Below are positions 1 to 19,909 of a stretch of DNA of 64,000 nucleotides, in pieces. Position 1 is the stretch's first letter. Each line of letters opens with the position of its first letter. Below the pieces are notes generated by a model. That model had not been told where the DNA came from, ran no database searches, and worked only from the letters and a program-made list of their open reading frames with translations. Source of the DNA: a virus (taxonomy: Duplodnaviria; Heunggongvirae; Uroviricota; Caudoviricetes); the IMG/VR virus record IMGVR_UViG_3300020045_008999, positions 160,001 to 224,000 of that record; one strand, 5' to 3'. The position numbers and the translations under genes are program-made.

Positions 1-360
1 ACCCACTGTAGTAGGCCCACCCACTAACGTAGTTAATCGATTTTCAATACAATAAAAACTACCACCAACCGTAACCGGTGAACCCTCTAATGAAGTTAAT
101 TTATTAAATCTACAACTAAAACCCTCACCCACAGTATGTGGCGAACCCTCTAATGAAGTCAAATCATTATGATCACATTCAAAATCCCCACTCACTTTTC
201 CAAATTTTAATGGTAATGAAGTTAATGATCCCCTGGGAAATACAACACTACCATCTACGTCAATAGAGCCATCCGAGTTTATCGAATAGTCTTCGATATG
301 ATATTCTTTGCAGATTAAATCGATCCGGTCTTTTTCTTCTTTATTGATTAAGTTCTTCAT
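1..360 (-). CDS. LRR family A protein, N-terminal part (runs off window start)
   Basis: ATG at 360-358 reads MKNLINKEEKDRIDLICKEYHIEDYSINSDGSIDVDG, followed by xFxCxxNxLTSLEGSP repeats; not in the ORF track because it is truncated. Confidence 0.9.
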   Translation of the reverse strand, partial: MKNLINKEEKDRIDLICKEYHIEDYSINSDGSIDVDGSVVFPRGSLTSLPLKFGKVSGDFECDHNDLTSLEGSPHTVGEGFSCRFNKLTSLEGSPVTVGGSFYCIENRLTTLVGGPTTVG

Positions 361-370
361 ATAGTATATA

Positions 371-1414
371 TTATTCTAGACCATCTTTAATTTCTGCTAT
401 CAAATCCAGGAAGTTTTCTTCATTTAATGTTAAGTCATCGTTCCAGATCTCAAAGTGTCGTTGATACTTTAAGATTAGTTTAATATGGTATATATTGTCT
501 ACAAATAGAACAGGCAAGCATTGACTATCGAAGTATCCCTCACCACTTATTTCTATATCTACATCACCGGCATAAGTAGAAGCTAAATTATTATCTGTGC
601 AATAAAAACCACCACTAACTGTATTTGGGGAACCCTCTAGGGTAGTTAATTGATTATTCTCACAATAAAAACTACCACTAACTACAGTCGGTGACCCCTT
701 TAGTAAAGTTAGTTTATTACTTGTACATGAAAAGTCACCACCCACCGATTGTGGTACCCCTTCAAAACTAGTTAATTGATTATCATCACAATAAAAACTA
801 CCACCAACTGTATTTGGCGAACCCACTAACGTAGTTAATCCATTACACTGGCAGTTAAAACCACGACTAACTGTAATAGGCCCACCCACTAACGTAGTTA
901 ATTGATTATCATTACAATGAAAATTACCGACCACTGAGGTAGGTCCACCAAGCAAACTAGTTAATTGATTATCATTACAATGAAAATTACCGACCACTGA
1001 GGTAGGGGATCCTTCTAAGGTAGTTAATTTATTATAACTACATTTGAAAATACCCCCAACTGTAGTAGGGGATCCCTCTAACGTAGTTAATTGATTATCA
1101 TCACAGTGGAAATTACCGCCAACTGTAGTAGGGGATCCCTCTAAGGTAGTTAAATGATTATCGTCACAATGGAAATTACCACCAACTGTAGTAGGGGATC
1201 CCTCTAAGGTAGTTAATTTATTATCATCACAATGGAAATTACCACTTACATTTCTAAACTTTAATGGTAGTTTTTCTAGTCCCCAATTAACTATTACCAC
1301 AAAATCATTCACATCAATAGATCCATCCGAGTTTATTGAATAGTTTTCAATTTGGTAAAATTTACATAATAAATCAATGCGGTCCTTTTCTTCTTTACTA
1401 ATTAAATTCTTCAT
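371..1414 (-). CDS. LRR family A protein (longest copy, about 10 repeats)
   Basis: Conserved N-cap, tandem 22-aa repeats FxCxxNxLTTLEGSPTTVGG, conserved C-cap ending DGLE. Confidence 0.93.
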   Translation of the reverse strand: MKNLISKEEKDRIDLLCKFYQIENYSINSDGSIDVNDFVVIVNWGLEKLPLKFRNVSGNFHCDDNKLTTLEGSPTTVGGNFHCDDNHLTTLEGSPTTVGGNFHCDDNQLTTLEGSPTTVGGIFKCSYNKLTTLEGSPTSVVGNFHCNDNQLTSLLGGPTSVVGNFHCNDNQLTTLVGGPITVSRGFNCQCNGLTTLVGSPNTVGGSFYCDDNQLTSFEGVPQSVGGDFSCTSNKLTLLKGSPTVVSGSFYCENNQLTTLEGSPNTVSGGFYCTDNNLASTYAGDVDIEISGEGYFDSQCLPVLFVDNIYHIKLILKYQRHFEIWNDDLTLNEENFLDLIAEIKDGLE

Positions 1415-1424
1415 GGCTTATATA

Positions 1425-2153
1425 TTAAAGTAAACCATCTTCAATTTCTGTTATTAAATCCTTGAAATTTTCTTCGTTTAATGTAAGGTCATCATTCCAT
1501 ATAAAAAAATGTCTTTGGTATTTTAGAATCAACTTAATATGGATAAGGTTAGTAATAAGCACCGATGGCAATCTATTTGATTTAAAATTTATACTATTTT
1601 CTACTTCTATATCAGTATCGCCTGAGTATGTAGAAACTATTTGATTGCTACTACAATCAAAATTATATCCAATTGTAGTCGGTGCACCCACCAATGATTT
1701 AATAAAATTATTGGAGCATATATAATAACCACCAATCGTAGTAGGAGAACTCTCTAATGTGACCAACCTATTGTATGAGCATTCATAATTACCACCCACT
1801 GTAACCGGCCCACCCACTAATGAAGTTAATTGATTATCATTACAATGATAATCCTCACCCACTATATGTGGAGAACCCTCTAATGAAGTCAATTTATTGT
1901 ATGAACAAGTAAAATAAACCCCGACAGTATGGGGGGAACCAGACAAAGATGTTAAGTTATTCTGATTGCATTTAAAATATCCAGTTACATTACCAAAGCG
2001 CAATGGTAAATGTGATATAGTCATACCAGTTAATTTCACATTACCATCCACATCAACAGATCCATCCGAGTTTATTGAATAGTTTTCGATTTCATATTCT
2101 TTGCAGATTAAATCGATCTGGTCCTTTTCTTCTTTAGATATTAAGTTCTTCAT
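1425..2153 (-). CDS. LRR family A protein
   Basis: ORF track 1425..2168; family-conserved start MKNLISKEEKD at 2153. Confidence 0.92.
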   Translation of the reverse strand: MKNLISKEEKDQIDLICKEYEIENYSINSDGSVDVDGNVKLTGMTISHLPLRFGNVTGYFKCNQNNLTSLSGSPHTVGVYFTCSYNKLTSLEGSPHIVGEDYHCNDNQLTSLVGGPVTVGGNYECSYNRLVTLESSPTTIGGYYICSNNFIKSLVGAPTTIGYNFDCSSNQIVSTYSGDTDIEVENSINFKSNRLPSVLITNLIHIKLILKYQRHFFIWNDDLTLNEENFKDLITEIEDGLL

Positions 2154-2198
2154 GTGGTAACGTATCAACTATGTTAGTTTGACTATATATTAAAACTA

Positions 2199-2750
2199 TT
2201 ATTCCAACCCCTCTTGGATTTCCAATATTAAAGTGTTGAAATTTTCTTCATTCAAAGTAAGATCAGCATTCCATATAAAGAAATGTCTTTGGTATTTCAA
2301 AATTAATTTAATATGATTATTATTCTTTTCTAAAATATCAGGCATTTTATGTATCCCCAGATTAAGGTCACTATATAAATCCCCAACGGTCTCATTGTCA
2401 ACATTACCGGAATAGGTGGAAATTAAATAATTTACCGCAAAGCGAAAATGTTTCCCGACATATTCTGGACAACCTTCCAATGTAGTCAAATTATTATTCT
2501 CACATTCATAATGACCACCGACACATATTGGGCCGCCCACTAATGTAGTTAATTTATTTCTATTGATCTCAAAGCTACCACTTACCTTGCCAAAACGCAA
2601 CGGTAAACTCAGTAATCCTCTCTGATTTAAATTAACATTACCATCTACATCAATAGAGCCATCCGAGTTTATCGAATAATTTTTAATTTGATAGCGTAAG
2701 CATTCCAGGTCGATCTGGTCCTTTTCTTCTTTAGATATTAAGTTCTTCAT
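2199..2750 (-). CDS. LRR family A protein (short)
   Basis: Conserved caps and 22-aa repeats. Confidence 0.92.
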   Translation of the reverse strand: MKNLISKEEKDQIDLECLRYQIKNYSINSDGSIDVDGNVNLNQRGLLSLPLRFGKVSGSFEINRNKLTTLVGGPICVGGHYECENNNLTTLEGCPEYVGKHFRFAVNYLISTYSGNVDNETVGDLYSDLNLGIHKMPDILEKNNNHIKLILKYQRHFFIWNADLTLNEENFNTLILEIQEGLE

Positions 2751-2774
2751 GAGATAACGGTGTTTGTCTATATA

Positions 2775-3383
2775 TTATTCTAGGCCGTCTTTAATTTCAT
2801 CCAGAAGTATCTGGAAGTTTTCTTCATTAAATGACAAATCATCATTCCAGATCATGAAATACCTCTGATACTTTATAATAGTACTAAGGTGTTCGTTATT
2901 ATCCATAAACACTTTAGGCAATAACTGAGTTTGTGGGTTTATTAGGTACACTCCACTCACATTTATATCGGTATCACCAGAATACGTAGATGTGATTTTA
3001 TTATTACCCACATTAAATTTGCCACCAACCGTTGTGGGTGCACCGACCAAGTCAGTCAGCTTATTGCTGCTACATGCAAAAATACTACCAACGGTGACCG
3101 GGCCACCAATCAAATTAGTCAATTTGTTATCGTTACAGTTAAATACACCACCAACCGTATGAGGGGATCCCTCTAAGGTAGTTAATGAATTCAGAGAACA
3201 ATAAAAACTACCAGACACATTACCAAATTTAATAGGAAGATTTTTCAGGTCTAAATTTCGTATACTCGCGTCACCATCAACGTCGATGGAACCATCTGGG
3301 TTTATCGAATAGTTTTTGATTCTATGTTTTTTACATATTAAATCAATCTGGTCCTTTTCTTCCTTGGTGATTAAGTTTTTCAT
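2775..3383 (-). CDS. LRR family A protein
   Basis: Conserved caps and 22-aa repeats. Confidence 0.92.
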   Translation of the reverse strand: MKNLITKEEKDQIDLICKKHRIKNYSINPDGSIDVDGDASIRNLDLKNLPIKFGNVSGSFYCSLNSLTTLEGSPHTVGGVFNCNDNKLTNLIGGPVTVGSIFACSSNKLTDLVGAPTTVGGKFNVGNNKITSTYSGDTDINVSGVYLINPQTQLLPKVFMDNNEHLSTIIKYQRYFMIWNDDLSFNEENFQILLDEIKDGLE

Positions 3384-3393
3384 AAATTTATTT

Positions 3394-4008
3394 TTATTCT
3401 AATCCCTCTTCTATTTCTAATAACAAATCCTTGAAATTTTCTTCGTTTAATGTAAGGTCATCATTCCAGATTTCAAAATGTCGTTGGTATTTCAAGATCA
3501 ATTTAATAACAACTTTGTTATGGCAATTACTAAGAAATTGCTGAGGTAATTTATTATTATTATTACAGTCAAAACTACCAATGATATCAATATCAATATC
3601 ACCAGAAAATATAGAAATTAGGTCATTGTGCATACAAAAAAACCCACCACCTATACTCTCAGGGGCACCCTCTAATGTGGTTAGTGCATTTAAATAACAA
3701 TGATAACTACCACCTACGGTAACTGGTCCACCCACCAATGAAATCAATTTATTAGTACAGCATGAATAACCCTTACCTACGGTAACCGGAGAACCTTTTA
3801 GAGTAGTTAACTTATTGTGATTGCATGAAAAATTACCAGATACTTTACCAAACTGTAATGGTAATTTTATTAAATGTCTATCCCTTAAATCCACATCACC
3901 ATCAACGTCAATAGATCCATCTGAGTTAATGGTATAGTTTTTTATTTTATATTCTTTGCATATAAAATCGATCTGGTCCTTTTCTTCCTTGGTGATTAAG
4001 TTCTTCAT
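3394..4008 (-). CDS. LRR family A protein
   Basis: Conserved caps and 22-aa repeats. Confidence 0.92.
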   Translation of the reverse strand: MKNLITKEEKDQIDFICKEYKIKNYTINSDGSIDVDGDVDLRDRHLIKLPLQFGKVSGNFSCNHNKLTTLKGSPVTVGKGYSCCTNKLISLVGGPVTVGGSYHCYLNALTTLEGAPESIGGGFFCMHNDLISIFSGDIDIDIIGSFDCNNNNKLPQQFLSNCHNKVVIKLILKYQRHFEIWNDDLTLNEENFKDLLLEIEEGLE

Positions 4009-4018
4009 ATAGTATATA

Positions 4019-4621
4019 TTATTCTAAACCATCTTCAATTTCTAATATAAGATCATTAAAATTTTCCTCGTTTAATGTAAGGTCATCATTCCAGATTTCA
4101 AAATGTCGTTGGTACTTTAAGATTATTTTAATATGGTCGATATTGTCATTAAATAATTGTGGTAATGAGGCCACATGCGAAAAAACATCTGATATTTCAA
4201 TATCAATATTTCCAGAATATGTAGAAATTAACTTATAGTTTTCGTAGCATATATATATGCCACCCACCATAGTAGGTGAACCCTCTAATGAAGTTAATTC
4301 ATTATAACTACAATTGAAAATACCCCCAACGGTAGTAGGCGATCCCTCTAAGGAAGTCAAAACATTATGATCACAATAAAAATTACCATTAACGGTAACT
4401 GGCGAACCTTCTAATGTAGTTAATTTATTACTAGCACAATCGAATTTACCAGATACTTTATTGAATTTAATCGGCATTTTAGTTAGTCCTATGTTGAATA
4501 AATCCACACTACCATCAACATTGATGGAACCATCCGAGTTTATGATATAGTTTGTGATTCTATATTGAATGCATATTAAATCAATCTGGTCCTTTTCTTC
4601 TTTAGTAATTAAGTTCTTCAT
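4019..4621 (-). CDS. LRR family A protein
   Basis: Conserved caps and 22-aa repeats. Confidence 0.92.
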   Translation of the reverse strand: MKNLITKEEKDQIDLICIQYRITNYIINSDGSINVDGSVDLFNIGLTKMPIKFNKVSGKFDCASNKLTTLEGSPVTVNGNFYCDHNVLTSLEGSPTTVGGIFNCSYNELTSLEGSPTMVGGIYICYENYKLISTYSGNIDIEISDVFSHVASLPQLFNDNIDHIKIILKYQRHFEIWNDDLTLNEENFNDLILEIEDGLE

Positions 4622-4635
4622 AAATTTATTCTTTT

Positions 4636-5487
4636 TTATTTTAAACCATCTTCAATTTCTAATAGCAAGTCATTGAAATTTTCATCATTTAATGATAAGT
4701 CATCATTCCAGATACTAAAATAGCGTTGGTACTTTAGAATCAATTTAATGTTTTCAGCATTATCTTGTAACAATTGTGGTAAGTAGGTATGATTAAAATA
4801 AAATTCTTCACCCACTTCAATGTCATTATCACCCGAATGGGTGGATATTAAATCATTATTACAATGGAAGTTGCCTTTAATCGTTTTGGGACAACCAATA
4901 AGAGTGCTTATTTGGTTAGAATTGCATACAAAATCACAATTAATTACTTCCGGGGATCCTACCAGGGATGTTATATTATTAAGCATGCAATAAATATTAC
5001 CCTTGATAGTATTTGGAATACCTTTAAATGAGGTTAAATTATTACTAGAACAATCAAAATCACCACCCACCGAAGTAGGTGCACCTTCCAATGTAGTCAA
5101 ATCGTTACCACCACATCTGAAGTGTAGACCAACCTCAACCGGACTACCATGCAGCGATCTTAGTTTATTTTCGACACAATCATACGCGTTCCCCACTATT
5201 GATGGACCACCAATCAAATTAACTAATTTGTTGTCAGCACAATCAAAGTAGTTTCCTACTTCATAAGGGCAACCATCTAATGTGGTTAGCATATTACTAG
5301 AACAGATGAAATCCTTACTGACTTTTCCAAAACGCAGGGGTAACTTAGTTAAACTTTCCATATATAAATTCACATCACCATCTACATCAATAGATCCATC
5401 CGAGTTTATGGTATAGTTTTTAATATTATATTTATCACAAATTGAATCAATACGATCCTTTTCTTCTTTACTGATTAAGTTCTTCAT
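4636..5487 (-). CDS. LRR family A protein (long)
   Basis: Conserved caps and 22-aa repeats. Confidence 0.92.
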   Translation of the reverse strand: MKNLISKEEKDRIDSICDKYNIKNYTINSDGSIDVDGDVNLYMESLTKLPLRFGKVSKDFICSSNMLTTLDGCPYEVGNYFDCADNKLVNLIGGPSIVGNAYDCVENKLRSLHGSPVEVGLHFRCGGNDLTTLEGAPTSVGGDFDCSSNNLTSFKGIPNTIKGNIYCMLNNITSLVGSPEVINCDFVCNSNQISTLIGCPKTIKGNFHCNNDLISTHSGDNDIEVGEEFYFNHTYLPQLLQDNAENIKLILKYQRYFSIWNDDLSLNDENFNDLLLEIEDGLK

Positions 5488-5536
5488 AGTACTATATATT
5501 AGATATTAAAAACTCACATGGAATCATAATATTTAT

Positions 5537-5544
5537 TACATTTG
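5537..5544 (+). promoter_or_regulatory. Bacteroidota-type -7 box, antisense to the LRR array
   Basis: TACATTTG upstream of the ATG at 5583. Confidence 0.5.
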
Positions 5545-5582
5545 TACCCATCATTAATAATATGCTGTAAATATACTCAATT

Positions 5583-6036
5583 ATGTCTATCAGTTTGAAA
5601 ACCATACCCCCAAATTATTCACCGGTTTTATTCGAAATGTTTTACATGGTGCCCGATGAAAAAACGGGGGAAGAATATTATTACTTCAAGGATAAAACGA
5701 TTAGCCGTGATCGCTATACTCCTATATTTCTGAAATGAATTAAAATCAACACATATGAATTTTCATTTTATAGTAGTATAAAAGGGGAATACGGTCGTTT
5801 TTTTTACAATTGAATTTGGATTGGGGTTCAGAACTATCAACGAAATTCAAGGACTTTTTACATACGGTAGATTTATAATGGATAATGATTATGAATTATC
5901 GTTGGACTCATGTAAAAAGATTTATGATTTAAATCTGACCATTGGCTATTATGATAACCAGGGTGTTGAGATAATTGAATATGATCAGATGGCAATACAA
6001 CGCCGCATTACCATCAATGATATTTTATATTCTTAA
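5583..6036 (+). pseudogene. Probable decayed gene inserted antisense in the array
   Basis: ATG 5583; in-frame TGA 5736-5738; same frame stays open to a T8 run (5798-5805), where removing one T joins ORF 5821..6036, which ends QRRITINDILYS. Confidence 0.5.
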
Positions 6037-6038
6037 TA

Positions 6039-6641: not shown

Positions 6642-6660
6642 GGTTTAATAGGGTTTCATT

Positions 6661-6703
6661 ATATATAAAATCTAATAACTCAAAGTGGTCAGCTCAGATA
6701 CTA
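6661..6703. repeat. Empty/collapsed form of the intergenic element
   Basis: Left flank (tatataaaatctaataactcaaagtggtcagc, cf. 7864-7898) joined directly to right flank (tcagatacta, cf. 11344-11353). Confidence 0.65.
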
Positions 6704-7306: not shown

Positions 7307-7318
7307 AAATTCATTCTT

Positions 7319-7858: not shown

Positions 7859-7894
7859 ATGTTATATATAAAAATCTAATAACTCAAAGGGGAC

Positions 7895-8120
7895 CAGCGA
7901 ACCGATAGGTGAGCTGCATATTAAACTAAACTTTAACGTTTTTTAACATTATAAATTTGCATATTAATTTAACTTTTATTAACTTTGTGTTGGCACTTTA
8001 CACTCAAGTACTACACTATAAAGTGCCAACATAAAGATACAATATTATTTTCATATACACAAGAATTTTAACAACGTTGTTAACATTTATATTTCAGCAC
8101 TATGTCCTCGCTTCGCTCGG
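7895..8120. repeat. Intergenic element copy E1
   Basis: Top-strand hairpin 7895-7916; + promoter TTTG 7956 / TAACTTTG 7980-7987; 18-bp inverted repeat 7983-8000 / 8019-8036; - promoter TATCTTTA 8039-8032 with TTG 20 nt upstream; bottom-strand hairpin 8106-8120. Confidence 0.9.
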
Positions 8121-8225
8121 ACTAATCATTATATATATTTTGCCTCTTATAATCTAAACTTTATTTATTCTTTACGTATAGTGTAGTTGTTAACTACTGG
8201 TTTATAAGGTACCACCATGAGGATA

Positions 8226-8963
8226 CTATTCTAAACCATCTTCTATTTCGCTTATCAAAACCTGGAAGTTTTCTTCATTTAAGGTAAGATCATCATTCCA
8301 TATCTCAAAGTATCGCTGATATTTTAAAATTAGCTTAATAACAACGTTGTTATGATCCATATTAGACTTAAGGAGTGGCGGTAATGTACCACCTGGTGAA
8401 AAATGACCACTCACTTCGATATCAATATCACCAGAATAAGTGGATGTCAATTTGTTATCATAACATACAAAATCCCCGCCAATCTTAGCAGGGGAACCAT
8501 CTAAGGAGATTAACTGATTTTCATAACAGTGAAAATTATTACCGACACTAACCGGAGCACCCTTTAACGATGTTAATCTGTTAAAACCACAAACAAAACT
8601 ACCCCCAACTATATGGGGACAACCCTCTAATGAAGTCAAATTATTATGACTAATGATGAAATCACCATCGACACTAACCGGGGCACCCTCTAATGAGGTT
8701 AAAATATTATGACTAATGATGAAATCACCATCGACACTAACCGGGGCACCCTCTAATGAAGTCAAATTATTAAACGAACATGTAAATCTACCAGATATTG
8801 CACCAAATTTCAATGGCAACTTATCTAATTTTTCATTATATAAATTTATACTATCATCTACATCAATAGACCCATCCGGATTAATGGAATAGTTTTTTAT
8901 ACTGTATTGATCACATATTAAATCAATTTGATCCTTTTCTTCTTTAGATATTAAGTTCTTCAT
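8226..8963 (-). CDS. LRR family A protein
   Basis: Conserved caps; recent internal duplication TSLEGAPVSVDGDFIISHN x2. Confidence 0.92.
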   Translation of the reverse strand: MKNLISKEEKDQIDLICDQYSIKNYSINPDGSIDVDDSINLYNEKLDKLPLKFGAISGRFTCSFNNLTSLEGAPVSVDGDFIISHNILTSLEGAPVSVDGDFIISHNNLTSLEGCPHIVGGSFVCGFNRLTSLKGAPVSVGNNFHCYENQLISLDGSPAKIGGDFVCYDNKLTSTYSGDIDIEVSGHFSPGGTLPPLLKSNMDHNNVVIKLILKYQRYFEIWNDDLTLNEENFQVLISEIEDGLE

Positions 8964-8974
8964 AAAGCTATATA

Positions 8975-9577
8975 TTATTCTAGGCCATCTTCAATTTCTA
9001 ATATCAAATCTTTAAAGTTATCTACGTTCAATGTTAAGTCATCATTCCAGATCTCAAAATGTCGCTGATATTTTAAAATTAGTTTAATGTGTCTAATATT
9101 ATCTTGTAATAATTGTGGTAATAGATTACCAGATAAATCCACATCAGCATCCACTTCGATATCAGTATCACCGGAATATGTAGAAGTCAGGTAGTTACGT
9201 AAACAAGTTAAATCACCACCAACCGTATGAGGTGCCCCCTCTAATGAAGTTATTTCATTATAATAACAATAAAAATTACCACCTACATAAGTAGGCGAAC
9301 CTACTAATGATGTCAATTTGTTTTCATAACATTCAAAATATCCACCAACCGTTGTAGGTGCACCATCTAATGAAGTCAGTAGATTTAAACCACAATTAAA
9401 AAACCCGGTAACTTTACCAAATCGCAATGGTATTTTAGTTAATTTTGTATTATGTAAATTAACATCATCATCTACATCAATAGTACCATCCGGGTTAATG
9501 CTATACTTCATGATGCTATATTGGGTGCATATTGAATCAATTCGATCTTTTTCTTCTTTACTAATTAAATTCTTCAT
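8975..9577 (-). CDS. LRR family A protein
   Basis: Conserved caps and 22-aa repeats. Confidence 0.92.
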   Translation of the reverse strand: MKNLISKEEKDRIDSICTQYSIMKYSINPDGTIDVDDDVNLHNTKLTKIPLRFGKVTGFFNCGLNLLTSLDGAPTTVGGYFECYENKLTSLVGSPTYVGGNFYCYYNEITSLEGAPHTVGGDLTCLRNYLTSTYSGDTDIEVDADVDLSGNLLPQLLQDNIRHIKLILKYQRHFEIWNDDLTLNVDNFKDLILEIEDGLE

Positions 9578-9588
9578 AAAACTATATA

Positions 9589-10317
9589 TTATTCTAGGCC
9601 GTCTTCGATTTCTACTATCAAATCCTGGAAGTTATCTTCATTGAGTGTAAGGTCTTCGTTCCAGATAAAGAAATGTCTCTGGTACTTTAAAATTAGTTTA
9701 ATATGGTATATATTGTCTACAAATAGAACAGGCAAGCATTGACTATCGAAGTATCCCTCACCACTTATTTCTATATCTACATCACCGGCATAAGTAGAAG
9801 CCAAATTATTATCTGTACAAATTAAATCACCGCCAATGGTAACCGGAGCACCCTCTAGGGTAGTTAATTGATTTTCGTCACAATAAAAACTACCAACAAC
9901 GTTAACTGGTCCACCCACTAACGTAGTTAATTGATTCCTTGTACATGAAAAGTCACCACCCACCAATTGTGGCACCCCTTCAAAACTAGTTAATTGATTA
10001 TCGTCACAATAAAAATCACCGCCAATGGTAACCGGCCCACCCACTAACGTAGCTAATTGATTATCATCACAATAAAAAAACCCACCCACCGTAGTAGGTG
10101 AGTCCTCTAGTGATGTCAGTTTGTTTGAAACACAATCGAAATTACCAAATACTTTATTAAAATTTAATGGAATTTTTTCCAAACCGGTCCTCCTTAAACT
10201 CACATCACCATCAACATCAATAGATCCATCTGAGTTAATCGTATAATTCTTAATTTTATATTTTATACATATTAAATCGATCTGGTCCTTTTCCTCTTTA
10301 CTAATTAAGTTCTTCAT
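9589..10317 (-). CDS. LRR family A protein
   Basis: Conserved caps; shares an identical 110-bp block with gene 371..1414. Confidence 0.92.
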   Translation of the reverse strand: MKNLISKEEKDQIDLICIKYKIKNYTINSDGSIDVDGDVSLRRTGLEKIPLNFNKVFGNFDCVSNKLTSLEDSPTTVGGFFYCDDNQLATLVGGPVTIGGDFYCDDNQLTSFEGVPQLVGGDFSCTRNQLTTLVGGPVNVVGSFYCDENQLTTLEGAPVTIGGDLICTDNNLASTYAGDVDIEISGEGYFDSQCLPVLFVDNIYHIKLILKYQRHFFIWNEDLTLNEDNFQDLIVEIEDGLE

Positions 10318-10341
10318 ATGTTAGCGGTGTTTGTCTATATA

Positions 10342-11079: not shown

Positions 11080-11114
11080 AAGCTATATATAAAAATTAGA
11101 TCCATCAAAGCGGC

Positions 11115-11350
11115 CAGCGAACCGATAGGTGAGCTGCATATTATATTAAACTTTAACAGTTTTAATTTGTAAATGTTAGATATATTCATTAACTTTGTGT
11201 TGGTACCTTACACTCAAGTACTACACTATAAAGTGCCAATATAAAGATACAAAATATAGTAATACAAAGCAAGTCTTTAATGTAAAAGTTATGAACGATG
11301 TTAACGAAGTGTCTTATCAACGATGTTATAAACAATCGCTCACTCAGACA
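11115..11350. repeat. Intergenic element copy E2
   Basis: Hairpin 11115-11136 identical to E1; TTTG 11166 / TAACTTTG 11190-11197; inverted repeat 11193-11210 / 11229-11246; opposing promoter; gttatcaac-like repeats; truncated right end cgctcact 11337-11344. Confidence 0.9.
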
Positions 11351-11962: not shown

Positions 11963-11972
11963 AAGCTATATA

Positions 11973-12515: not shown

Positions 12516-12526
12516 AAAACTATATA

Positions 12527-13135: not shown

Positions 13136-13146
13136 GTAGCTATATA

Positions 13147-13707
13147 TTATTCTAATCCCTCTTTAATTTCTGCTATCAAATCATTGAAGTTTTCTTCGTT
13201 CAATGTTAGATCCTCATTCCAGATCATAAATGGTCGCTGGTACTTCAGAATCAATTTAATATGACCCAGGTTATCCACCAATTGCTGAGGTAGGTGGTTA
13301 GAATTGACACTTGTGACATCGGAAATGCATCTTATAATACCGGATACCTCAATATCAGTATCACCAGCGTAAGTAGAAGTTAGAACATTATACGTGATAT
13401 CAAAATAACCCCCAACATATGCCGGGCATCCCACCAATGATGTCAGCATATTATCCTCACAATCAAAATCACCACCAACATTCTTAGGGGAACCTACCAG
13501 TGATTTCAAGCCATTCGAATCACATCGGAAAACACCAGATACATTATTGAATTTTACTGGAATTACGATTAAGCCGCTATCCGCTAAATTGACATCCCCC
13601 TTTACATCAATCGATCCATCCGAGTTAATCGAATAATTCTTGATGCCAAATTCTTCACATATCAAATCAATTTGATCCTTTTCTTCTTTACTAATTAAGT
13701 TCTTCAT
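13147..13707 (-). CDS. LRR family A protein (short)
   Basis: Conserved caps and 22-aa repeats. Confidence 0.92.
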   Translation of the reverse strand: MKNLISKEEKDQIDLICEEFGIKNYSINSDGSIDVKGDVNLADSGLIVIPVKFNNVSGVFRCDSNGLKSLVGSPKNVGGDFDCEDNMLTSLVGCPAYVGGYFDITYNVLTSTYAGDTDIEVSGIIRCISDVTSVNSNHLPQQLVDNLGHIKLILKYQRPFMIWNEDLTLNEENFNDLIAEIKEGLE

Positions 13708-13717
13708 GGCCTATATA

Positions 13718-14569
13718 TTATTCTAACCCCTCGTTAATTTCTGCTATCAAATCATTGAAATTTTCTTCGTTCAGACTAAGATCTTCATTCCAGATCATAA
13801 AATGCCGCTGGTACTTTAAAATTAATACTATGTGTTCTATATTTTCATTAAACAGTTGAGGCAGTGTACTATTTGTAAAGCATACGTCAGCCCTCAACTC
13901 AATGTCTATATCACCAGAATATGTAGATGTCAACAGGTTTTTTTTACAATCGAAATAACCACAAGTAGCAGTTGGGGCACCCTCTAAAGATGTCAATTTA
14001 TTATGACCACATAGCAAATCACCGCCAACCCACTCAGGACCCCCCACTAATGAAGTCAACTGATTGTGACTACAATAAAAATTACCTTTCACTGTGGTAG
14101 GTGAGCCATGTAATGTAGTCAACATATTAAAGAAGCAGCTATAGCCTTTTCCGATCGTAGTAGGCCCATCCACTAATGAAGTCAAACGATTATCATCACA
14201 GTTAAAATGCCCACCAACCTCAACCGGACCCCCCACTAATGAAGTCAAATAATTATGACCACAGTCAAAATATCCACTCACCGTAGTAGGACAACCCACT
14301 AATGAAGTCAATTGATTTTTGACACAATCGAAACCACCCACCGTAGTAGGACAACCCACTAATGAAGTCAATTGATTATCATTACAAATAAAATTCCCAG
14401 ATACCGTATTAAATTTTATTGGCAACTCTTTTAATTTTTGCTCATGTAAGTTTACATCACCATCAACATCAATCGACCCATCCGAGTTGATAGTATAATT
14501 TTCGATTCGGTGGTCATTACATATCTCATCGATACGATCCTTTTCTTCTTTGGTAATTAAATTCTTCAT
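13718..14569 (-). CDS. LRR family A protein (long)
   Basis: Conserved caps; near-identical tandem NQLTSLVGCPTTV units. Confidence 0.92.
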   Translation of the reverse strand: MKNLITKEEKDRIDEICNDHRIENYTINSDGSIDVDGDVNLHEQKLKELPIKFNTVSGNFICNDNQLTSLVGCPTTVGGFDCVKNQLTSLVGCPTTVSGYFDCGHNYLTSLVGGPVEVGGHFNCDDNRLTSLVDGPTTIGKGYSCFFNMLTTLHGSPTTVKGNFYCSHNQLTSLVGGPEWVGGDLLCGHNKLTSLEGAPTATCGYFDCKKNLLTSTYSGDIDIELRADVCFTNSTLPQLFNENIEHIVLILKYQRHFMIWNEDLSLNEENFNDLIAEINEGLE

Positions 14570-14579
14570 GGTCTATATA

Positions 14580-15120
14580 TTATTCTAAGCCGTCTTTAAT
14601 ATCTGCAATCAGATTGTTAAAGTTTTCTTCATTCAATGTTAGATCATCATTCCAGATCATGAAATGCCGCTGGTACTTTAAAATTAATAAGATGTGCTCT
14701 ATATTATCATTAAACAGTTGAGGTAACGGATTACTTACAATATTAACATTCTCACCTATTTCAATATCAATATCCATTAAATAGGTGGTGGTTATATTAT
14801 TAAAGGAACAATCGAAACTACCCAAAATAGTAACCGGACATCCATTCAATGAAGTTAGACTATTATTGTTACAATAAAAATACCCACCCACCGTAGTAGG
14901 TGAGCCCTCCAGAGATGTCAATTTGTTTAAAACACAATTGAAATTACCAGACACAATGTTGAATCTTACCGGAAATTTAGTTATTTTTTTTATCAAATAA
15001 ATCTACATTGCCGTGCACGTCAATTGATCCATCTGAGTTAATTGAATAGTTTTTAATATTTTCATTAGAGCATATTCTATCGATACGATCCTTTTCTTCT
15101 TTGCTTATTAAGTTCTTCAT
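14580..15120 (-). pseudogene. LRR family A gene frameshifted in an A8 homopolymer
   Basis: MKNLISKEEKDRID starts at 15120; span is 541 nt (3n+1); A8 run (T8 at 14984-14991) restores the frame into ORF 14580..14996 if A7. Confidence 0.85.
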
Positions 15121-15131
15121 ATAAATATTTA

Positions 15132-15734
15132 CTATTCCAACCCTTCTTCAATTTCCGATATCAAATCCTTGAAGTTTTTTTTATTTAAGGTAAGATCATC
15201 ATTCCAAATATAAAAATGTCGCTGGTACTTTAAGATCAATTTGATGTGATTTATATTTGTGATAAGTGATTTATATATTTTTTTACCTGGGTAAAAATCG
15301 CCACCAAAATCAATATCGATATCACCAGAATACGTAGAACGGATAGGTGTATCCTCAAAAAATAAATCACCACCAATGGTATGAGGTGCTCCCTCTAATG
15401 AAGTTAATTCAATATTACCACTGCAAACAAAATCACCATTAACCACATTCGGGGCACCATTTAGTGATGTTAGTCTATTATCACTACACTTAAAATTACC
15501 ACCCACCGTAGTAGGACCACCCTCTAATGATGTCAATAGATTAAAATTACATCCAAAATCACCAGTTATCTTACCGAACTTCAATGGCAGCTTAACTATA
15601 TCTATATTAAATATACTGACATCACCATCCACATCAACTGAACCATCCGAGTTGATCGAATAATTCACGATTCCGTATTGATCACATATTAAATCAATAC
15701 GATCCTTTTCCTCTTTACTAATTAAGTTCTTCAT
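15132..15734 (-). CDS. LRR family A protein
   Basis: ORF track 15132..15764; family-conserved start at 15734. Confidence 0.92.
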   Translation of the reverse strand: MKNLISKEEKDRIDLICDQYGIVNYSINSDGSVDVDGDVSIFNIDIVKLPLKFGKITGDFGCNFNLLTSLEGGPTTVGGNFKCSDNRLTSLNGAPNVVNGDFVCSGNIELTSLEGAPHTIGGDLFFEDTPIRSTYSGDIDIDFGGDFYPGKKIYKSLITNINHIKLILKYQRHFYIWNDDLTLNKKNFKDLISEIEEGLE

Positions 15735-15851
15735 ATATCTATATATAAAATCCAAATCACTCAAAGGTGGCCGACTTACGTAGTTATAATCGCAGTGAGC
15801 GGCATAATTCTACCCATCTTGTTCCAATCTTTATGTTAGCGTAGGTATGAG

Positions 15852-16419
15852 TTATTCAAGTATTTGTGAAATTATCCACGTTCTATACAATTTTGCTAGA
15901 TCATACGATTCCGGATTTGCTAATTGGTCCATGCGTAATCCCAGCCTAAATAATTCGATAATCGTATCTATATCATTATTGATCCCGGAAAAACATCCAT
16001 CAATGTTGGTGGTAATTCCGTCAAATGAATGAATGAATGTGAAAATCAATATCACAAAAATAATTACCACCAACTTTACTTGGACCGAATTCCAATGATG
16101 TTAGTTTATTTTCACAGCAATAAAAACACTCACCGATAATACTTGGACCGAATTCCAATGATGTTAATTCATTTTCACAACACAAAAAATCACCAGTAAC
16201 TTCAATAGGACAACCGTATAATGTACTGAGCTTATTTTGTACACATATAAAGTCACCAATAACCTTATTAAACCGCAATGGTAGCTCAGTTAAATTTTGA
16301 CCACATAGATCAACCCCATCATAAGCATCAATTGTACCATCGTCATTAATGTCGTAGCCGGAAATTGAATACTTCTGACAGATATCCTCGATTTTATTAT
16401 TTCGTTCAGAATTATCCAT
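15852..16419 (-). pseudogene. Diverged LRR gene (family B tail) frameshifted at a (CATT)4 microsatellite
   Basis: ORF 16021..16419 and ORF 15852..16073 join in frame if one 4-bp unit at 16024-16039 is removed (568-4=564 nt); restored C-terminus LYRTWIISQILE. Confidence 0.8.
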
Positions 16420-16465
16420 AATTGTATTTTTCCTAAGTATTGAATATAAAAAGAAACTCGTAATG

Positions 16466-17206
16466 CTATTTATTTAATTGTTTAGTGTATTTTTTCTTTA
16501 TCATTTGTTTTGTTAGCTTTTCCTTATCACCATCTTCAACAATTCTAATTATTATACTATCGATACCAACGTCCTTGATCATCTTATCTAAGGTAACAGA
16601 ATGACCAGATTTTAAATTGTTTAGTAAGCCATCATTTTTACTAGTATATACTATAAATTTTTTATTTACCTGATTGGTTATGACAACAGAATAACGCTTG
16701 CTTTGTGTGAATAAATGAGATGGATATAGGTATAACTTTTCATGCAATTGTTTTAATGACTTATATCCCAAAACATCTTTCATAATATTGATCGACTTAT
16801 GTACTTCGGTATCCTCTGCTCCTTTGATAAATAGATTGTATCTTTCGTTGGGATTATTATTATCGTTAAATTCAATATTGGTTAGATCCTGGACCATAGA
16901 ATATTCTCTTATAAGCCTTTCTTCATCAGCGCGATCAGATGACAACATTTTGACAATTAGTCGACTACCAGAGTCCAGAATTCCCTTTATTAGTTTATTC
17001 TTTCTTACATTTATATTAGTTGCCTTTTGTAGATCTAATATGTGGAATGCAATCCTCCCCTTTATATTACTAGTTGATCCAATATAAAAATCATTTATCA
17101 TATACACCCCAGATGTATACGTATCTTCAATATCCGCAAACCATTTTATGTTATCAGAAACATAATTTATCAATAGTTTTTTCTTATCAACCTCAGTTTT
17201 TGTCAT
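16466..17206 (-). CDS. GIY-YIG family endonuclease
   Basis: SGVYMINDFYIGSTSNIKGRIAFH motif plus downstream E and N (EERLIREY...LTN). Confidence 0.75.
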   Translation of the reverse strand: MTKTEVDKKKLLINYVSDNIKWFADIEDTYTSGVYMINDFYIGSTSNIKGRIAFHILDLQKATNINVRKNKLIKGILDSGSRLIVKMLSSDRADEERLIREYSMVQDLTNIEFNDNNNPNERYNLFIKGAEDTEVHKSINIMKDVLGYKSLKQLHEKLYLYPSHLFTQSKRYSVVITNQVNKKFIVYTSKNDGLLNNLKSGHSVTLDKMIKDVGIDSIIIRIVEDGDKEKLTKQMIKKKYTKQLNK

Positions 17207-17485
17207 TTGTATATAAATTAATCAATTATATACAAATGATATGTGAAAGTTTAGTGATGTGTAAAATAAATAATCAAATAAATACTAGTGAATATTTAAC
17301 ATATTAAATTTGTATAAGAACTTTAAATTTCTTAACTTTGTGTTGGCACCTTATACTCTACTACTAGACTATAGTGTGCCAACATAAAGATACTAATTAA
17401 TACAATACAAAACAAGACTCATAGACAAAAGTTATCAACAATCGTTCACTGCGTTTATAAATACGTTAGCGACACCACTCTGATA

Positions 17486-18088
17486 CTATTCTAATCCGTC
17501 TTCAATTTCTGCTATCAAATTCTGGAAGTTTTCCTCATTTAAAGTTAAGTCATCATTCCAGATGAAGAAATGTCTTTGGTACTTCAAGATCAATTTAATG
17601 TGATGTACATTATTCTTCAATTGCTGTGGTAGGATGTTTAAGCTACATGTTACAATTCCGGATACGTCAATATCCGTATCACCTGAGTAAGTAGAAGTTA
17701 ATTTATTATTACTACAATATAAATTACTACCAACCGATTGTGGTGCCCCCACTAATGAAGTTAAACCATTGTACCCACATCTGAAATTCCCACCAACAGA
17801 TGTAGGTGATCCTTCCAATGACGTCAACATATTAATACTACAATAAAAATCATCACCAACTGTATGAGGGGATCCCTCTAAGGTAGTTAATATGTTCATT
17901 GAACAAGAAAATTTACCGGTCACATTACCAAATCGCAATGGTAATTGTTTTAAGCGTTTATGTTCTAAATCAACATCTCCCTCAACGTCAATGGATCCAT
18001 CAGCATTAATAGTGTAATGCCTAATATGAGATCTTCTACAAATCGAATCAATACGGTTCTTTTCCTCTATACTAATTAAGTTTTTCAT
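17486..18088 (-). CDS. LRR family A protein
   Basis: Conserved caps and 22-aa repeats. Confidence 0.92.
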   Translation of the reverse strand: MKNLISIEEKNRIDSICRRSHIRHYTINADGSIDVEGDVDLEHKRLKQLPLRFGNVTGKFSCSMNILTTLEGSPHTVGDDFYCSINMLTSLEGSPTSVGGNFRCGYNGLTSLVGAPQSVGSNLYCSNNKLTSTYSGDTDIDVSGIVTCSLNILPQQLKNNVHHIKLILKYQRHFFIWNDDLTLNEENFQNLIAEIEDGLE

Positions 18089-18211
18089 AAGCTATATATA
18101 CTATTATTATTTTTTCAATTTTTACCAAAACAGCGAATGGAAATATAATATATACTATGTAGGAATGATGAAGTTTATTAAATATTCTAGATTAACAACT
18201 CTATCACGCTC

Positions 18212-18445
18212 AGTAGATTATCGGATACCAGCTTTTATCCCAGGGATAATGATCCAGCTGCCCATATAAAGATCGAAAAGTGATAGAACAATCGAAAATG
18301 TTAAATATACCAAACCCAAGACTACACATCGAATAGATACAACAGTGTTATACCTATCGAAGAATATATGTTAATTCATAGTAGATTATCGGAAACCAGC
18401 TTTTATCCCAGGGATAATGATCCAGCTGCCCATATAAAGATCGAA
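18212..18445. repeat. 66-bp direct repeat x2 with internal palindrome
   Basis: 18212-18277 and 18380-18445 differ at one base; contain TTATCCC-A-GGGATAA nested in CAGCT...AGCTG. Confidence 0.9.
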
Positions 18446-18741
18446 CCGCAATTAATTATTCAAGATAATATACCATTCAAATATCAACGGATGTCATAAT
18501 ACAAATTAAAACATATTTAAATACCCAACCTGGTGAAATGTCAAAAAAAATGACATACATACCGGGAATTACCAGTTAGAACAATCCTAATGATTTAAAT
18601 ATGAATATAATTGAGCTATTTAAATACAGTGGATTTAAGCCACTTAAATTTTAAAATGGTGTCCTAGTATTAAAAAAATATAATAAAGCCTTATATTAGG
18701 CAACATTGAAGGGATTTAATGAATTTACTTATATAAGACAG

Positions 18742-18830
18742 CAGCGAACGAAGTGAGCTGTATAATTATACAAAATTTTAACAACGTTGTTATCAACAAT
18801 CGCTCACTACGTTTATAACTACATTAGCGA
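18742..18830. repeat. Intergenic element copy E4 lacking the promoter/IR core
   Basis: Left hairpin cagcgaacgaagtgagctg 18742-18760 followed closely by right-side ttaacaacgttgttatcaacaatcgctcact. Confidence 0.8.
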
Positions 18831-18844
18831 CCACCATCTAGATA

Positions 18845-19585
18845 TTATTCTAATCCTTCTTCAATTTCGGATATCAAATCCTTGAAGTTTTCTTCATTCA
18901 ATGTCAGATCATCATTCCATATAAAGAAATATCTCTGGTACTTAAAGATCATTCTGAAATCAACCATGTGTTCACCATCACCGTCTTTACCAAATTGTAC
19001 CGGCATGTACTTTGTGTCATAATATAAAGTGCCCTTTAATTCAATATCATCAGCACAATACGTGGATGATATTGAATTACCTTCACAATGATAACCACCT
19101 CCAATCATAGTAGGTGATCCTATTAAGTTACTTAGTTGGTTATCGGCACAACAAAAATTTCCATTAACACTATTTGGACCACCTTCCAATGAAGTTAAAA
19201 TGTTCCTATGACAATAAAAATCCACATTAATGATATCCGGTGATCCCTTTAACGAAGTTAATTGGTTATAAGAACAAAAGAAACTATTTCGGACTAACTT
19301 AGGGCCCCAGTCTAAATTAACCAAGTTATTAGACTGTCCGTAAAATGTCCCACCAACCTCATGCGGACATCCTTTCAATGAAGTTAACTGATTTCCATTG
19401 CAATAAAAATCACCAGATACTTTATTAAAGCTCAATGGTAAATCAGTTAATTCCTTTTTGGTTAAATTAACATCACCATCAACGTCAATAGTCCCATCTG
19501 AGTTTATCGAGTAATTAAATATATTATATTTCTTACAAATTGAATCAATACGATCCTTTTCCTCTTTAGATATTAAATTCTTCAC
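18845..19585 (-). CDS. LRR family A protein (first of array, GTG start)
   Basis: Conserved caps and 22-aa repeats. Confidence 0.9.
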   Translation of the reverse strand: MKNLISKEEKDRIDSICKKYNIFNYSINSDGTIDVDGDVNLTKKELTDLPLSFNKVSGDFYCNGNQLTSLKGCPHEVGGTFYGQSNNLVNLDWGPKLVRNSFFCSYNQLTSLKGSPDIINVDFYCHRNILTSLEGGPNSVNGNFCCADNQLSNLIGSPTMIGGGYHCEGNSISSTYCADDIELKGTLYYDTKYMPVQFGKDGDGEHMVDFRMIFKYQRYFFIWNDDLTLNEENFKDLISEIEEGLE

Positions 19586-19636
19586 ATGTTTATCTTTATT
19601 TCAATTATATATAAAATTCAGATCCCTCAAAGCGGC

Positions 19637-19874: not shown

Positions 19875-19909
19875 GGCACCATCTAAATCCCCATTAGATC
19901 TATTCGAAT

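What the first reader, a model, noticed from the sequence alone, without database searches (positions are those of the whole stretch)
1..19585. Tandem array of 24 variable-LRR genes: a phage repertoire with VLR-like architecture
Seen: 24 head-to-tail paralogs, and the array continues past base 1. Each has a conserved N-cap, a variable number of 22-aa repeats (xFxCxxNxLTSLEGSPxxVGG) and a conserved C-cap. Lengths cluster at about 180, 202, 245, 283 and 347 aa, i.e. steps of roughly whole repeats. Variation concentrates around FxCxxN. Established: in LRR solenoids those positions form the concave ligand-binding face, and capped variable-LRR repertoires underlie lamprey VLRs. Inference: this is a diversifying library of binders aimed at many host targets, such as defence proteins or receptors. 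I do not know a characterised phage system of this form.
Basis: partly seen in the sequence, partly recalled or inferred. Interest (0 to 1): 0.92.

Follow-up and report, generated by a model that had tools for sequence, protein, structure and literature searches.

The report
Hundred-gene LRR binder family in megaphage
A 597-kb phage gives about 11-13% of its genome to roughly 115 related genes for small leucine-rich-repeat proteins whose scaffold is conserved while the ligand-facing residues differ from gene to gene; this looks like an inherited set of binders whose targets are unknown.

Summary
Window 1-19585 carries 24 minus-strand paralogs (one cut by base 1, one frameshifted) plus one truncated variant. 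The window lies in a 596,785-bp T4-type phage genome with 97 intact canonical members (66.7 kb, 11.2%) and about 15 variants.

The repeat is 21 aa, not 22, and lengths step by 21 (179, 200, 221 ... 347). AlphaFold gives a confident LRR solenoid (pLDDT 96.7). The class is the 21-residue cysteine-ladder type of Listeria InlJ (E 8e-13).

Variation peaks at the x positions of xFxCxxNx. In five ortholog pairs from related metagenome contigs, dN/dS there is about 0.7-1.6, against 0.13-0.25 for scaffold and caps. Gene content and order differ between relatives.

The lamprey-VLR analogy fails mechanistically. All genes are complete germline genes, the paralogs are old (best DNA identity 73.5% median) and there is no reverse transcriptase.

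Targets, timing and delivery remain unknown. Relatives carry a T4-like capsid-targeting leader that this family lacks.

Earlier follow-ups in this scan found similar but smaller arrays in other phages. I found no published description for phages.

The parts
1..360 (-). 5' part (120 aa) of a 263-aa canonical LRR gene that continues left of the window
   Evidence: genome 159569-160360
371..1414 (-). canonical LRR gene, 347 aa, about 10 units
1425..2153 (-). canonical LRR gene, 242 aa from MKNLIS; 86% identical ortholog on Logan contig L105
2199..2750 (-). canonical LRR gene, 183 aa
2775..3383 (-). canonical LRR gene, 202 aa
3394..4008 (-). canonical LRR gene, 204 aa
4019..4621 (-). canonical LRR gene, 200 aa
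4636..5487 (-). canonical LRR gene, 283 aa
6039..6641 (-). canonical LRR gene, 200 aa
6701..7306 (-). canonical LRR gene, 201 aa
7319..7858 (-). canonical LRR gene, 179 aa
8226..8963 (-). canonical LRR gene, 245 aa, with a young internal duplication of one 63-bp unit (88 bp at 93%, offset 63)
8975..9577 (-). canonical LRR gene, 200 aa; the member folded (pLDDT 96.7, pTM 0.90)
9589..10317 (-). canonical LRR gene, 242 aa
10342..11079 (-). canonical LRR gene, 245 aa
11351..11962 (-). canonical LRR gene, 203 aa
11973..12515 (-). canonical LRR gene, 180 aa; 83% ortholog on JGI contig L104
12527..13135 (-). canonical LRR gene, 202 aa; 84% ortholog on L104
13147..13707 (-). canonical LRR gene, 186 aa
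13718..14569 (-). canonical LRR gene, 283 aa
14580..15120 (-). canonical LRR gene split by a one-base frameshift in an A8 run near 14990 (pseudogene, slippage or sequencing error)
15132..15734 (-). canonical LRR gene, 200 aa from MKNLIS; 94% aa / 95.7% DNA ortholog on L104
16021..16419 (-). truncated variant: N-cap plus 3 units, no C-cap, 132 aa
16466..17206 (-). GIY-YIG-like ORF inside the array (probable homing endonuclease), not a family member
   Evidence: PF01541, E 1.7e-4, 22.2 bits, just under the 22.6 cut-off
17486..18088 (-). canonical LRR gene, 200 aa; 91% ortholog on L104, at a different array position
18845..19585 (-). canonical LRR gene, 246 aa; last member of the 35-gene minus-strand block
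7859..8225 (-). one of four copies of a repeated intergenic element heading a sub-array (others 11080-11350, 17207-17485, 19586-19909): TTGATAAC boxes, TTTG..TATCTTTA, hairpin TTGGCAC..GTGCCAA, and (except in 17207-17485) a TTTTATATATA box before the next ATG
Two more lie at 55975-57488, and one canonical member at 60246-60767

Best explanation
This is a lineage-specific expansion of one gene into an inherited repertoire of about 115 small LRR binding proteins. They have no signal peptide or membrane segment. The genome is a T4-type megaphage whose host is probably a Flavobacterium-like Bacteroidota.

Each protein is one rigid solenoid: an N-cap (a helix plus two hairpins), 2-10 units of 21 residues of the InlJ cysteine-ladder class, and a C-cap that folds only against the last unit. 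F, C, N, L, G, P and V build the core. The residues between them on the beta-strand face differ from paralog to paralog and are rich in Asn, Ser, Asp, Tyr and His.

Shown: the fold, the census, the site pattern, purifying selection on scaffold and caps, fast change on the concave face, and turnover of gene content between relatives.

Inferred:
- New genes arose by old tandem duplication.
- Repeat number changes by 63-bp unit slippage.
- Each member binds a different protein of the infected cell (defence or takeover targets) through its concave face.
- It is unresolved whether the proteins act where they are made or are loaded into capsids and injected.
For: - Census: 97 frames carry both caps, totalling 66.7 kb or 11.2% of the genome. 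Only 2 clear frameshift splits and 2 short fragments were seen.
- Fold: pLDDT 96.7 and pTM 0.90. Every top Foldseek and VIA hit is an LRR protein: SDS22 Z 12.0, IpaH1.4 Z 11.4, YopM Z 11.1. The family profile hits InlJ 3bz5 at E 8e-13.
- Period 21 and length quantisation.
- Entropy is 3.0-3.7 bits at x positions and 0.3-1.1 at the core. Concave positions are enriched in Y 2.5x, H 2.2x, D 1.8x, S 1.8x and N 1.5x.
- Five ortholog pairs with overall dS 0.26: concave dN 0.185 gives omega 0.72 on overall dS and 1.6 on class dS. Scaffold is 0.13-0.21, caps 0.17-0.25, convex about 0.4. Paralog pairs rank the classes the same way.
- Orthologs at 83-94% identity exist in other samples, while the best within-genome paralog is 57.5% median and 70% at most. 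Individual paralogs are therefore kept as distinct genes.
- Content and order differ in sister contig L104. Among phages with 62-72% identical capsid protein, counts range from none (465-kb record rated 98% complete) to roughly 25-30 in a 201-kb fragment.
- The N-terminus is charged, with no hydrophobic stretch (sequence).
Against: - No binding partner, expression datum or phenotype exists.
- Omega above 1 is not shown. About 33 non-synonymous changes on 199 concave sites are equally compatible with relaxed constraint.
- Site classes were chosen partly from the same variability that they then measure.
- I had no model coordinates, so 'concave face' rests on the canonical LRR register plus the DSSP strands at F-x.
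- The box TAATATATAG, shared with the major capsid gene, sits 10 nt before the ATG of about half of the genes. That may mean late expression, which fits packaged or virion proteins better than early host takeover.
- Related phages put a T4-like capsid-targeting leader on their LRR proteins.
Confidence: 0.55

Rival explanations
1. Packaged and injected cargo. The LRR proteins are made late, loaded into the very large capsid and delivered with the DNA, as T4 internal proteins are. They would then meet host defences before any phage gene is expressed.
For: - LRR paralogs of two related phages (G004, G005) begin with MKHIKPYKIFES or MKHLIQYRLFES. This is a T4 CTS-like leader ending in (I/L)-F-E, which fits the T4 prohead-protease rule (L/I)-x-E (the rule is established T4 knowledge).
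- Several unrelated ORFs of this genome start the same way, for example MKHLKRFNES and MKYIKKFIKINES.
- A weak gp21-like protease match lies next to the capsid gene (E 1e-5, below cut-off).
- The TAATATATAG box is shared with the capsid and baseplate-wedge genes and is absent before the DNA polymerase and DnaB genes.
Against: - In this genome the leader is shortened to MKNLISKEE. It lacks the aromatic residue and the hydrophobic P3 residue.
- Residues 7-19 are a helix of the folded N-cap, so there is no free propeptide.
- The box also precedes an HNH endonuclease and a helicase, so its timing class is not established.
Confidence: 0.22
2. Virion-surface adhesins. The caps dock the proteins onto capsid or fibres, and the variable LRR faces bind many cell-surface or matrix glycans. 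This would be a cloud of host-recognition modules.
For: - In phage Goslar, a conserved docking module followed by LRR or carbohydrate-binding domains is proposed to form such a fibre cloud (bioRxiv 10.64898/2026.04.21.720040).
- InlJ, the closest solved relative by sequence, is a surface protein.
- The promoter-like box may indicate late expression.
Against: - There is no trimerisation or fibre-attachment domain.
- The C-cap does not fold alone (pLDDT 63).
- The C-cap occurs only at the end of 120-300-aa proteins of this same family (181 representatives in 1.84 billion proteins).
- About 100 different surface proteins on one particle has no precedent.
- The Vibrio phage homolog lies beside a DnaB-like helicase gene among small ORFs, not among tail genes.
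Confidence: 0.1
3. Largely neutral repeat-gene proliferation that inflates the genome, with no specific targets.
For: - Omega on the concave face is near 1.
- Repeat-protein gene number scales with genome size in giant viruses (PMC5753266).
- A 465-kb relative rated 98% complete has none.
Against: - 97 of about 100 canonical frames are intact despite near-saturated synonymous divergence.
- Scaffold and caps are under clear purifying selection, omega 0.13-0.25.
- Specific paralogs are conserved as orthologs at 83-94% identity in other samples.
Confidence: 0.06
4. An actively diversifying system in the sense of lamprey VLRs or DGRs: cassette assembly, targeted hypermutation or frequent gene conversion.
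For: - NAT and NGT codons dominate the concave positions. Ser there is mostly AGT, against TCA in the scaffold.
- One young 63-bp unit duplication was found.
Against: - No reverse transcriptase was found in a record rated 98% complete.
- There are no partial cassettes.
- Best-hit DNA identity is 73.5% median, and the longest stretch of >=90% identity between genes is 120 bp.
- Synonymous differences between paralogs are 0.42-0.86 per site.
Confidence: 0.02

Closest known systems
Listeria monocytogenes internalin J (InlJ, PDB 3bz5): the 21-residue cysteine-ladder LRR class (Bublitz et al. 2008, J Mol Biol 378:87, as listed in the references of PMC9525666)
   Same: The period is 21 residues. Cys replaces the hydrophobic residue at LRR position 6 (88% of 374 units here). 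It is the best sequence match among solved structures, E 8e-13.
   Different: InlJ is a large secreted, wall-anchored adhesin present as a single gene. These are 180-350-aa proteins without a signal peptide, with their own N- and C-caps, in about 115 copies in a phage.
LRR domains of bacterial type III effectors (IpaH, SspH1, YopM)
   Same: Short 20-22-residue units, a helical N-cap, and action inside another cell's cytoplasm by binding host proteins on the concave face. They are among the best structural matches: IpaH1.4 Z 11.4, YopM Z 11.1, IpaH9.8 spanning model residues 9-200.
   Different: Those carry secretion signals and mostly a ligase domain, in a few copies per genome. Sequence relation is weak (E 0.004-0.06).
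Repeat-protein multigene families of giant eukaryotic viruses (FGxxFN/FNIP LRR proteins of CroV and Megavirus; ankyrin, WD40 and MORN families)
   Same: A large virus spends a sizeable share of its genome on dozens to hundreds of paralogs of one repeat scaffold. The gene number scales with genome size, the role is proposed to be binding, and the comparison with VLRs is already made there (PMC9525666, PMC5753266).
   Different: Those have eukaryotic hosts, a different LRR class (22-residue FGxxFN), and are often fused to F-box or kinase domains. Here the host is a bacterium and there is no effector fusion.
Lamprey and hagfish variable lymphocyte receptors
   Same: Capped LRR modules with a variable number of units and variation on the concave face. 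VLR structures appear among the fold matches (2o6q, 3m18, 6bxa).
   Different: VLR diversity is somatic, assembled from cassettes into an incomplete germline gene. Here all genes are complete, inherited and anciently diverged, and the caps are unrelated.
Lineage-specific expansion of a zinc ribbon in Bacillus phage G (about 35 copies, called unprecedented in PMC7824862)
   Same: A paralog expansion inside a jumbo phage genome.
   Different: A different fold, one third of the copy number, and a proposed DNA-binding role.

Membership tests
LRR superfamily | Tandem 20-30-residue units with the LxxLxLxxNxL core | tested here: met
   374 units with F at position 2 (80%), C at 4 (88%), N at 7 (91%) and L at 9 (86%), period 21
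LRR superfamily | Curved solenoid fold with one beta-strand per unit | tested here: met
   AF2 pLDDT 96.7 with a strand at F-x of every unit. All 50 top VIA rows are LRR proteins, Z up to 12.0, rmsd 2.5 A over 117 residues
LRR superfamily | Match to a curated Pfam LRR model | tested here: not met
   No LRR family at E<=0.1 for five window members. PF12799 is precomputed on only a few relatives. The models miss this class; the fold evidence stands.
InlJ-type cysteine-ladder LRR class | 21-residue unit with Cys at core position 6 | tested here: met
   profile match to 3bz5 at E 8e-13
Internalins | Signal peptide, internalin N-cap plus inter-repeat Ig-like domain, wall anchor | tested here: not met
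   The N-terminus is charged, the proteins end 65-70 aa after the last unit, and no such domains were found
Lamprey VLR-type system | Incomplete germline gene completed from flanking partial cassettes | tested here: not met
   Every member has its own start, caps and stop. Only 12 short stretches of >=90% identity occur between genes
Diversity-generating retroelement target | Reverse transcriptase plus template/variable repeat pair | tested here: not met
   No PF00078 match at E<=0.01 in the record, which is rated 98% complete; no near-identical repeat pair
T4-type capsid-targeted internal proteins | Short N-terminal leader ending in (L/I)-x-E, removed by the prohead protease | tested here: inconclusive
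   Present by sequence on LRR paralogs of relatives G004 and G005. In this genome's family it is reduced to MKNLISKEE, without the hydrophobic P3 residue. Cleavage and packaging are not testable here.
Viral repeat-protein multigene family (giant-virus type) | Tens to hundreds of paralogs of one repeat scaffold, clustered, lineage-specific in number | tested here: met
   97 canonical plus about 15 variant members. 67 lie in one 65-kb block. Counts range from 0 to about 30 in related phage records

The most novel reading that the evidence does not exclude
Megaphages of Bacteroidota carry a germline receptor-like repertoire of more than 100 LRR proteins, comparable in scale to plant NLR or animal TLR/VLR gene sets. 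Its members each neutralise or sense a different host defence or rival-phage protein. Expansion of this repertoire is one of the drivers of phage genome gigantism.
Probability: 0.3. Interest if true: 0.9.

Novelty: new variant of a known kind. Interest (0 to 1): 0.7.

Why it matters
- If the members bind distinct host proteins, this is the largest known set of natural, compact, cysteine-ladder LRR binders in any phage. It would give direct access to what a megaphage must recognise in its host. It would also be a ready scaffold family for binder engineering.
- It offers a concrete partial answer to why some phage genomes grow so large. One gene family accounts for 11-13% of a 597-kb genome and is absent from a 465-kb relative.
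- The published record I found for jumbo phages calls a 35-copy expansion unprecedented (PMC7824862).

Tried and rejected
- Pattern scans of IMG/VR and JGI metagenome contigs with alignment A1 gave pattern hits but no tblastn-confirmed relative. Relatives were reached through the capsid protein and exact-protein look-ups instead.
- Megablast of window 20-44 kb against GenBank phages found only a 130-bp match to Flavobacterium phages.
- The C-cap folded alone gave pLDDT 63 and pTM 0.36, so no fold search was run on it. I read it as an integral cap, not a separate domain.
- The sigma-70 promoter scan was no better than shuffles: 121 found against 121.4 expected. The excess of terminator-like hairpins (23 against 7.5) lies inside coding sequence for G-S-P-x-T-V-G-G and is a coding artefact.
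- No Rfam family and no tRNA in the region.
- I tried to date the TAATATATAG box by annotating ten large genes that carry it. The result was one baseplate wedge, one helicase, one HNH endonuclease and seven unknowns, which is inconclusive.
- Small ORFs in the gaps 5488-6038 and 18089-18844 look like noise.
- No complex prediction was run, because no candidate partner exists.


Full report
**What is there**

Window 1-19585 holds 24 minus-strand ORFs with one architecture, plus one truncated variant. Neighbouring genes are mostly 10-14 nt apart. Gaps of 270-756 bp split the row into sub-arrays.

The window is bases 160001-224000 of a single 596,785-bp contig with 31.9% GC. The contig is an IMG/VR virus record that CheckV rates 98% complete. 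It has a T4-type major capsid gene at 444.6-446.3 kb and a T4-type portal gene at 396 kb. Al-Shayeb et al. mention a 596-kb genome as the largest phage genome reported before their study (PMC7162821). That this record is that genome is my inference from size and source only.

**Census**

I built HMMs of the N-cap and the C-cap and searched all stop-to-stop frames of the genome.
- 97 frames carry both caps, 19 the N-cap only and 3 the C-cap only. All lie between 10.7 and 233 kb.
- The 97 canonical genes sum to 66.7 kb, which is 11.2% of the genome. 67 of them form one block at 115-180 kb (17 minus, 15 plus, 35 minus).
- Of the N-cap-only frames, three are pieces of broken genes. About 15 form a second subfamily with the same N-cap, 1-4 units and a different short C-terminus. 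Nine of these lie in the window at 28.5-38 kb and 56-57.5 kb.
- The split gene at 14580-15120 is caused by one extra base in an A8 run.

**Repeat and fold**

The spacing between unit cores is exactly 21 residues in 240 of 278 cases. Protein lengths fall on 179 + 21n.

AlphaFold2 on a 30-sequence alignment of 200-aa members gave pLDDT 96.7 and pTM 0.90. The model has a helix at residues 7-19, two hairpins, one short strand at F-x and one at x-V in each unit, and three helices in the C-cap.

All leading Foldseek and VIA matches are LRR proteins:
- SDS22, Z 12.0, rmsd 2.5 A over 117 residues.
- IpaH1.4, Z 11.4.
- YopM, Z 11.1.
- IpaH9.8, spanning model residues 9-200.

The family profile hits internalin J (3bz5) at E 8e-13 and the SspH1 and IpaH LRR domains weakly. 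Pfam finds no LRR model on window members. PHROGs gives only two families of unknown function.

The N-terminus is charged and there is no hydrophobic segment, so the proteins stay in the cytoplasm where they are made.

**Where the variation is**

Over 374 units, F2, C4, N7, L9, L12, G14, P16 and V19 have 0.3-1.1 bits of entropy. Positions 1, 3, 5, 6 and 8 (the x of xFxCxxNx) have 3.0-3.7 bits. Positions 13, 15, 17 and 18 have 2.4-3.5 bits.

In the canonical LRR register, F2 and C4 point into the core, so positions 1, 3 and 5 face the concave side, and 6 and 8 flank the Asn ladder. I could not compute exposure from coordinates.

Concave positions are enriched in Tyr, His, Asp, Ser and Asn. They are mostly NAT or NGT codons, and Ser there is AGT rather than the TCA used in the scaffold. 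That fits single-base walks among neighbouring codons.

**Selection**

Paralog pairs are nearly saturated, with pS 0.42-0.86. In the 20-60 closest pairs, Nei-Gojobori dN/dS is about 1.3 on concave sites, 0.7 on convex variable sites, 0.15 on scaffold and 0.2-0.35 on caps.

Better data come from orthologs. Metagenome proteins match particular window genes at 83-94% identity. The best paralog inside the genome is 57.5% identical at the median and 70% at most.

For five gap-free ortholog pairs with overall dS 0.26:

| Site class | dN/dS |
|---|---|
| Concave (dN 0.185) | 0.72 on overall dS; 1.6 on the dS of its own 41 synonymous sites |
| Convex variable | about 0.4 |
| Scaffold | 0.13-0.21 |
| Caps | 0.17-0.25 |

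So the binding face changes three to five times faster than the rest, at about the neutral rate. A value above 1 is not demonstrated.

**Age and mode of growth**

- Best-hit DNA identity between paralogs is 73.5% at the median. Only 12 inter-gene stretches reach 90% identity over 60 bp, and the longest is 120 bp.
- One gene (8226-8963) has a young duplication offset by 63 bp.
- Best hits lie somewhat closer in the array than chance: median rank distance 16 against 29.
- No reverse transcriptase is present.

The picture is old tandem duplication, occasional unit slippage and long independent divergence. It is not cassette shuffling or hypermutation.

**Comparison across phages**

- JGI contig L104 (4.9 kb) has six members. 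Two are syntenic orthologs of 12527 and 11973. The 15132 ortholog (95.7% DNA identity) sits elsewhere. The closest relative of 17486 occupies the place of 11351. Genes 13718 and 14580 have no counterpart.
- A Logan contig has seven full members in 13.5 kb.
- Among phage records with 62-72% identical capsid protein, a 465-kb record (98% complete) and a 242-kb record have none, one has a single gene, and two fragments of about 200 kb have roughly 25-30 and 12-15.
- Each lineage has its own C-cap. This genome's C-cap profile finds only 181 cluster representatives among 1.84 billion proteins, always at the C-terminus of 120-300-aa proteins.
- The ESM Atlas places the protein among some 30 clusters that are 94-100% viral and unnamed.
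- A Vibrio jumbo phage has the same unit type without these caps, beside a DnaB-like helicase gene.
- One bacterial genome, Flavobacterium sandaracinum LB-D12, has a full-architecture homolog in an island with an integrase, a resolvase and a DNA methyltransferase.

**Delivery and timing (unresolved)**

In the relatives G004 and G005 the LRR proteins start with MKHIKPYKIFES or MKHLIQYRLFES. This resembles the T4 capsid-targeting sequence and ends in the (L/I)-x-E site of the T4 prohead protease; both are established T4 knowledge.

Seven other ORFs of this genome start in the same style. A weak protease match lies beside the capsid gene. This genome's LRR family has only MKNLISKEE, without the hydrophobic residues, and residue 7 already starts a helix of the fold.

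A box TAATATATAG starts 10 nt before the ATG of about 40% of family genes, and 23-31 nt before the ATG of a further 19%. The same box precedes the capsid gene and about 260 genes genome-wide in two sharp spacing classes. It is absent before the DNA polymerase and DnaB genes.

It resembles the T4 late promoter TATAAATA. At the -10 spacing it would start transcripts at the ATG. Annotation of ten carriers did not settle its class. Sub-arrays are also headed by a repeated element with Bacteroidota-like promoter boxes and a conserved hairpin.

**Literature and earlier scan notes**

Seven searches found no description of LRR gene arrays in phages.
- The jumbo-phage survey calls a 35-copy zinc-ribbon expansion in phage G unprecedented (PMC7824862).
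- Giant eukaryotic viruses have comparable LRR and ankyrin families, for which the VLR comparison is already drawn (PMC9525666, PMC5753266).
- Earlier follow-ups of this scan report smaller arrays of the same unit type in other phages. I did not test those.

**Verdict**

The LRR-binder reading is well supported structurally and by the site pattern. The VLR-style mechanism is not supported. Targets and route of action are open.

Noticed in passing
genome-wide; in the window e.g. 361-370, 8964-8974, 11963-11972: The box (T)TAATATATAG lies upstream of about 260 of 843 ORFs in two sharp spacing classes. TATATA starts at -10/-12 in one class and at -23 to -31 in the other. It precedes the T4-type capsid gene but not the DNA polymerase or DnaB genes. 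It is a possible late promoter, and at the short spacing it would give leaderless mRNAs.
   Followed up: partly
window 7859-8225, 11080-11350, 17207-17485, 19586-19909 (part copy near 18700-18844): A repeated 240-280-bp intergenic element heads the sub-arrays. It has TTGATAAC boxes, TTTG..TATCTTTA (Bacteroidota promoter-like), a conserved hairpin TTGGCAC..GTGCCAA, and (in three of the four copies) a TTTTATATATA box.
   Followed up: partly
L097-L103 (IMG/VR records G004 and G005): LRR paralogs of two related huge phages carry an N-terminal MKHIKPYKIFES or MKHLIQYRLFES leader, which is T4 capsid-targeting-like. They also have lineage-specific C-caps. Within G004 the caps are nearly identical between paralogs, which suggests a much younger expansion than here.
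   Followed up: partly
L107:3497-4285 (Flavobacterium sandaracinum LB-D12, NZ_SMFN01000020.1): This is the only bacterial genome hit with the full N-cap/LRR/C-cap architecture (262 aa, 35% identity). It lies in an island with a tyrosine integrase, a serine recombinase and a 650-aa DNA methyltransferase next to a riboflavin synthase gene. It hints at a Flavobacterium host range.
   Followed up: partly
window 16466-17206 and 19910-20596, minus strand: A GIY-YIG-like ORF lies inside the array and an HNH/endonuclease-like ORF (PHROG 4645, E 3e-6) lies just beyond it. They are probably homing endonucleases.
   Followed up: no
window 18089-18844: A 756-bp non-coding gap contains a direct repeat of about 65 bp (TTCGATCTTTATATGGGCAGCTGGATCATTATCCCTGGGATAAAAGCTGGT..) in two copies about 210 bp apart.
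   Followed up: no
window 25515-25644: 130 bp are 94.6% identical to a hypothetical gene of Flavobacterium phages vB_FspS_snusmum6-1, 6-2, 6-3 and 9-1. This is the only near match of 24 kb of flanking sequence to GenBank phages.
   Followed up: no
genome 447990-448352, minus strand (outside the window): A weak Peptidase_S77 (T4 gp21-like) match (E 1e-5, below cut-off) lies inside a 718-aa ORF next to the capsid gene. It may be a protease-scaffold fusion.
   Followed up: no
genome 333264-334652 (outside the window): The family B DNA polymerase match is split and has one in-frame TAA inside the matched stretch.
   Followed up: no
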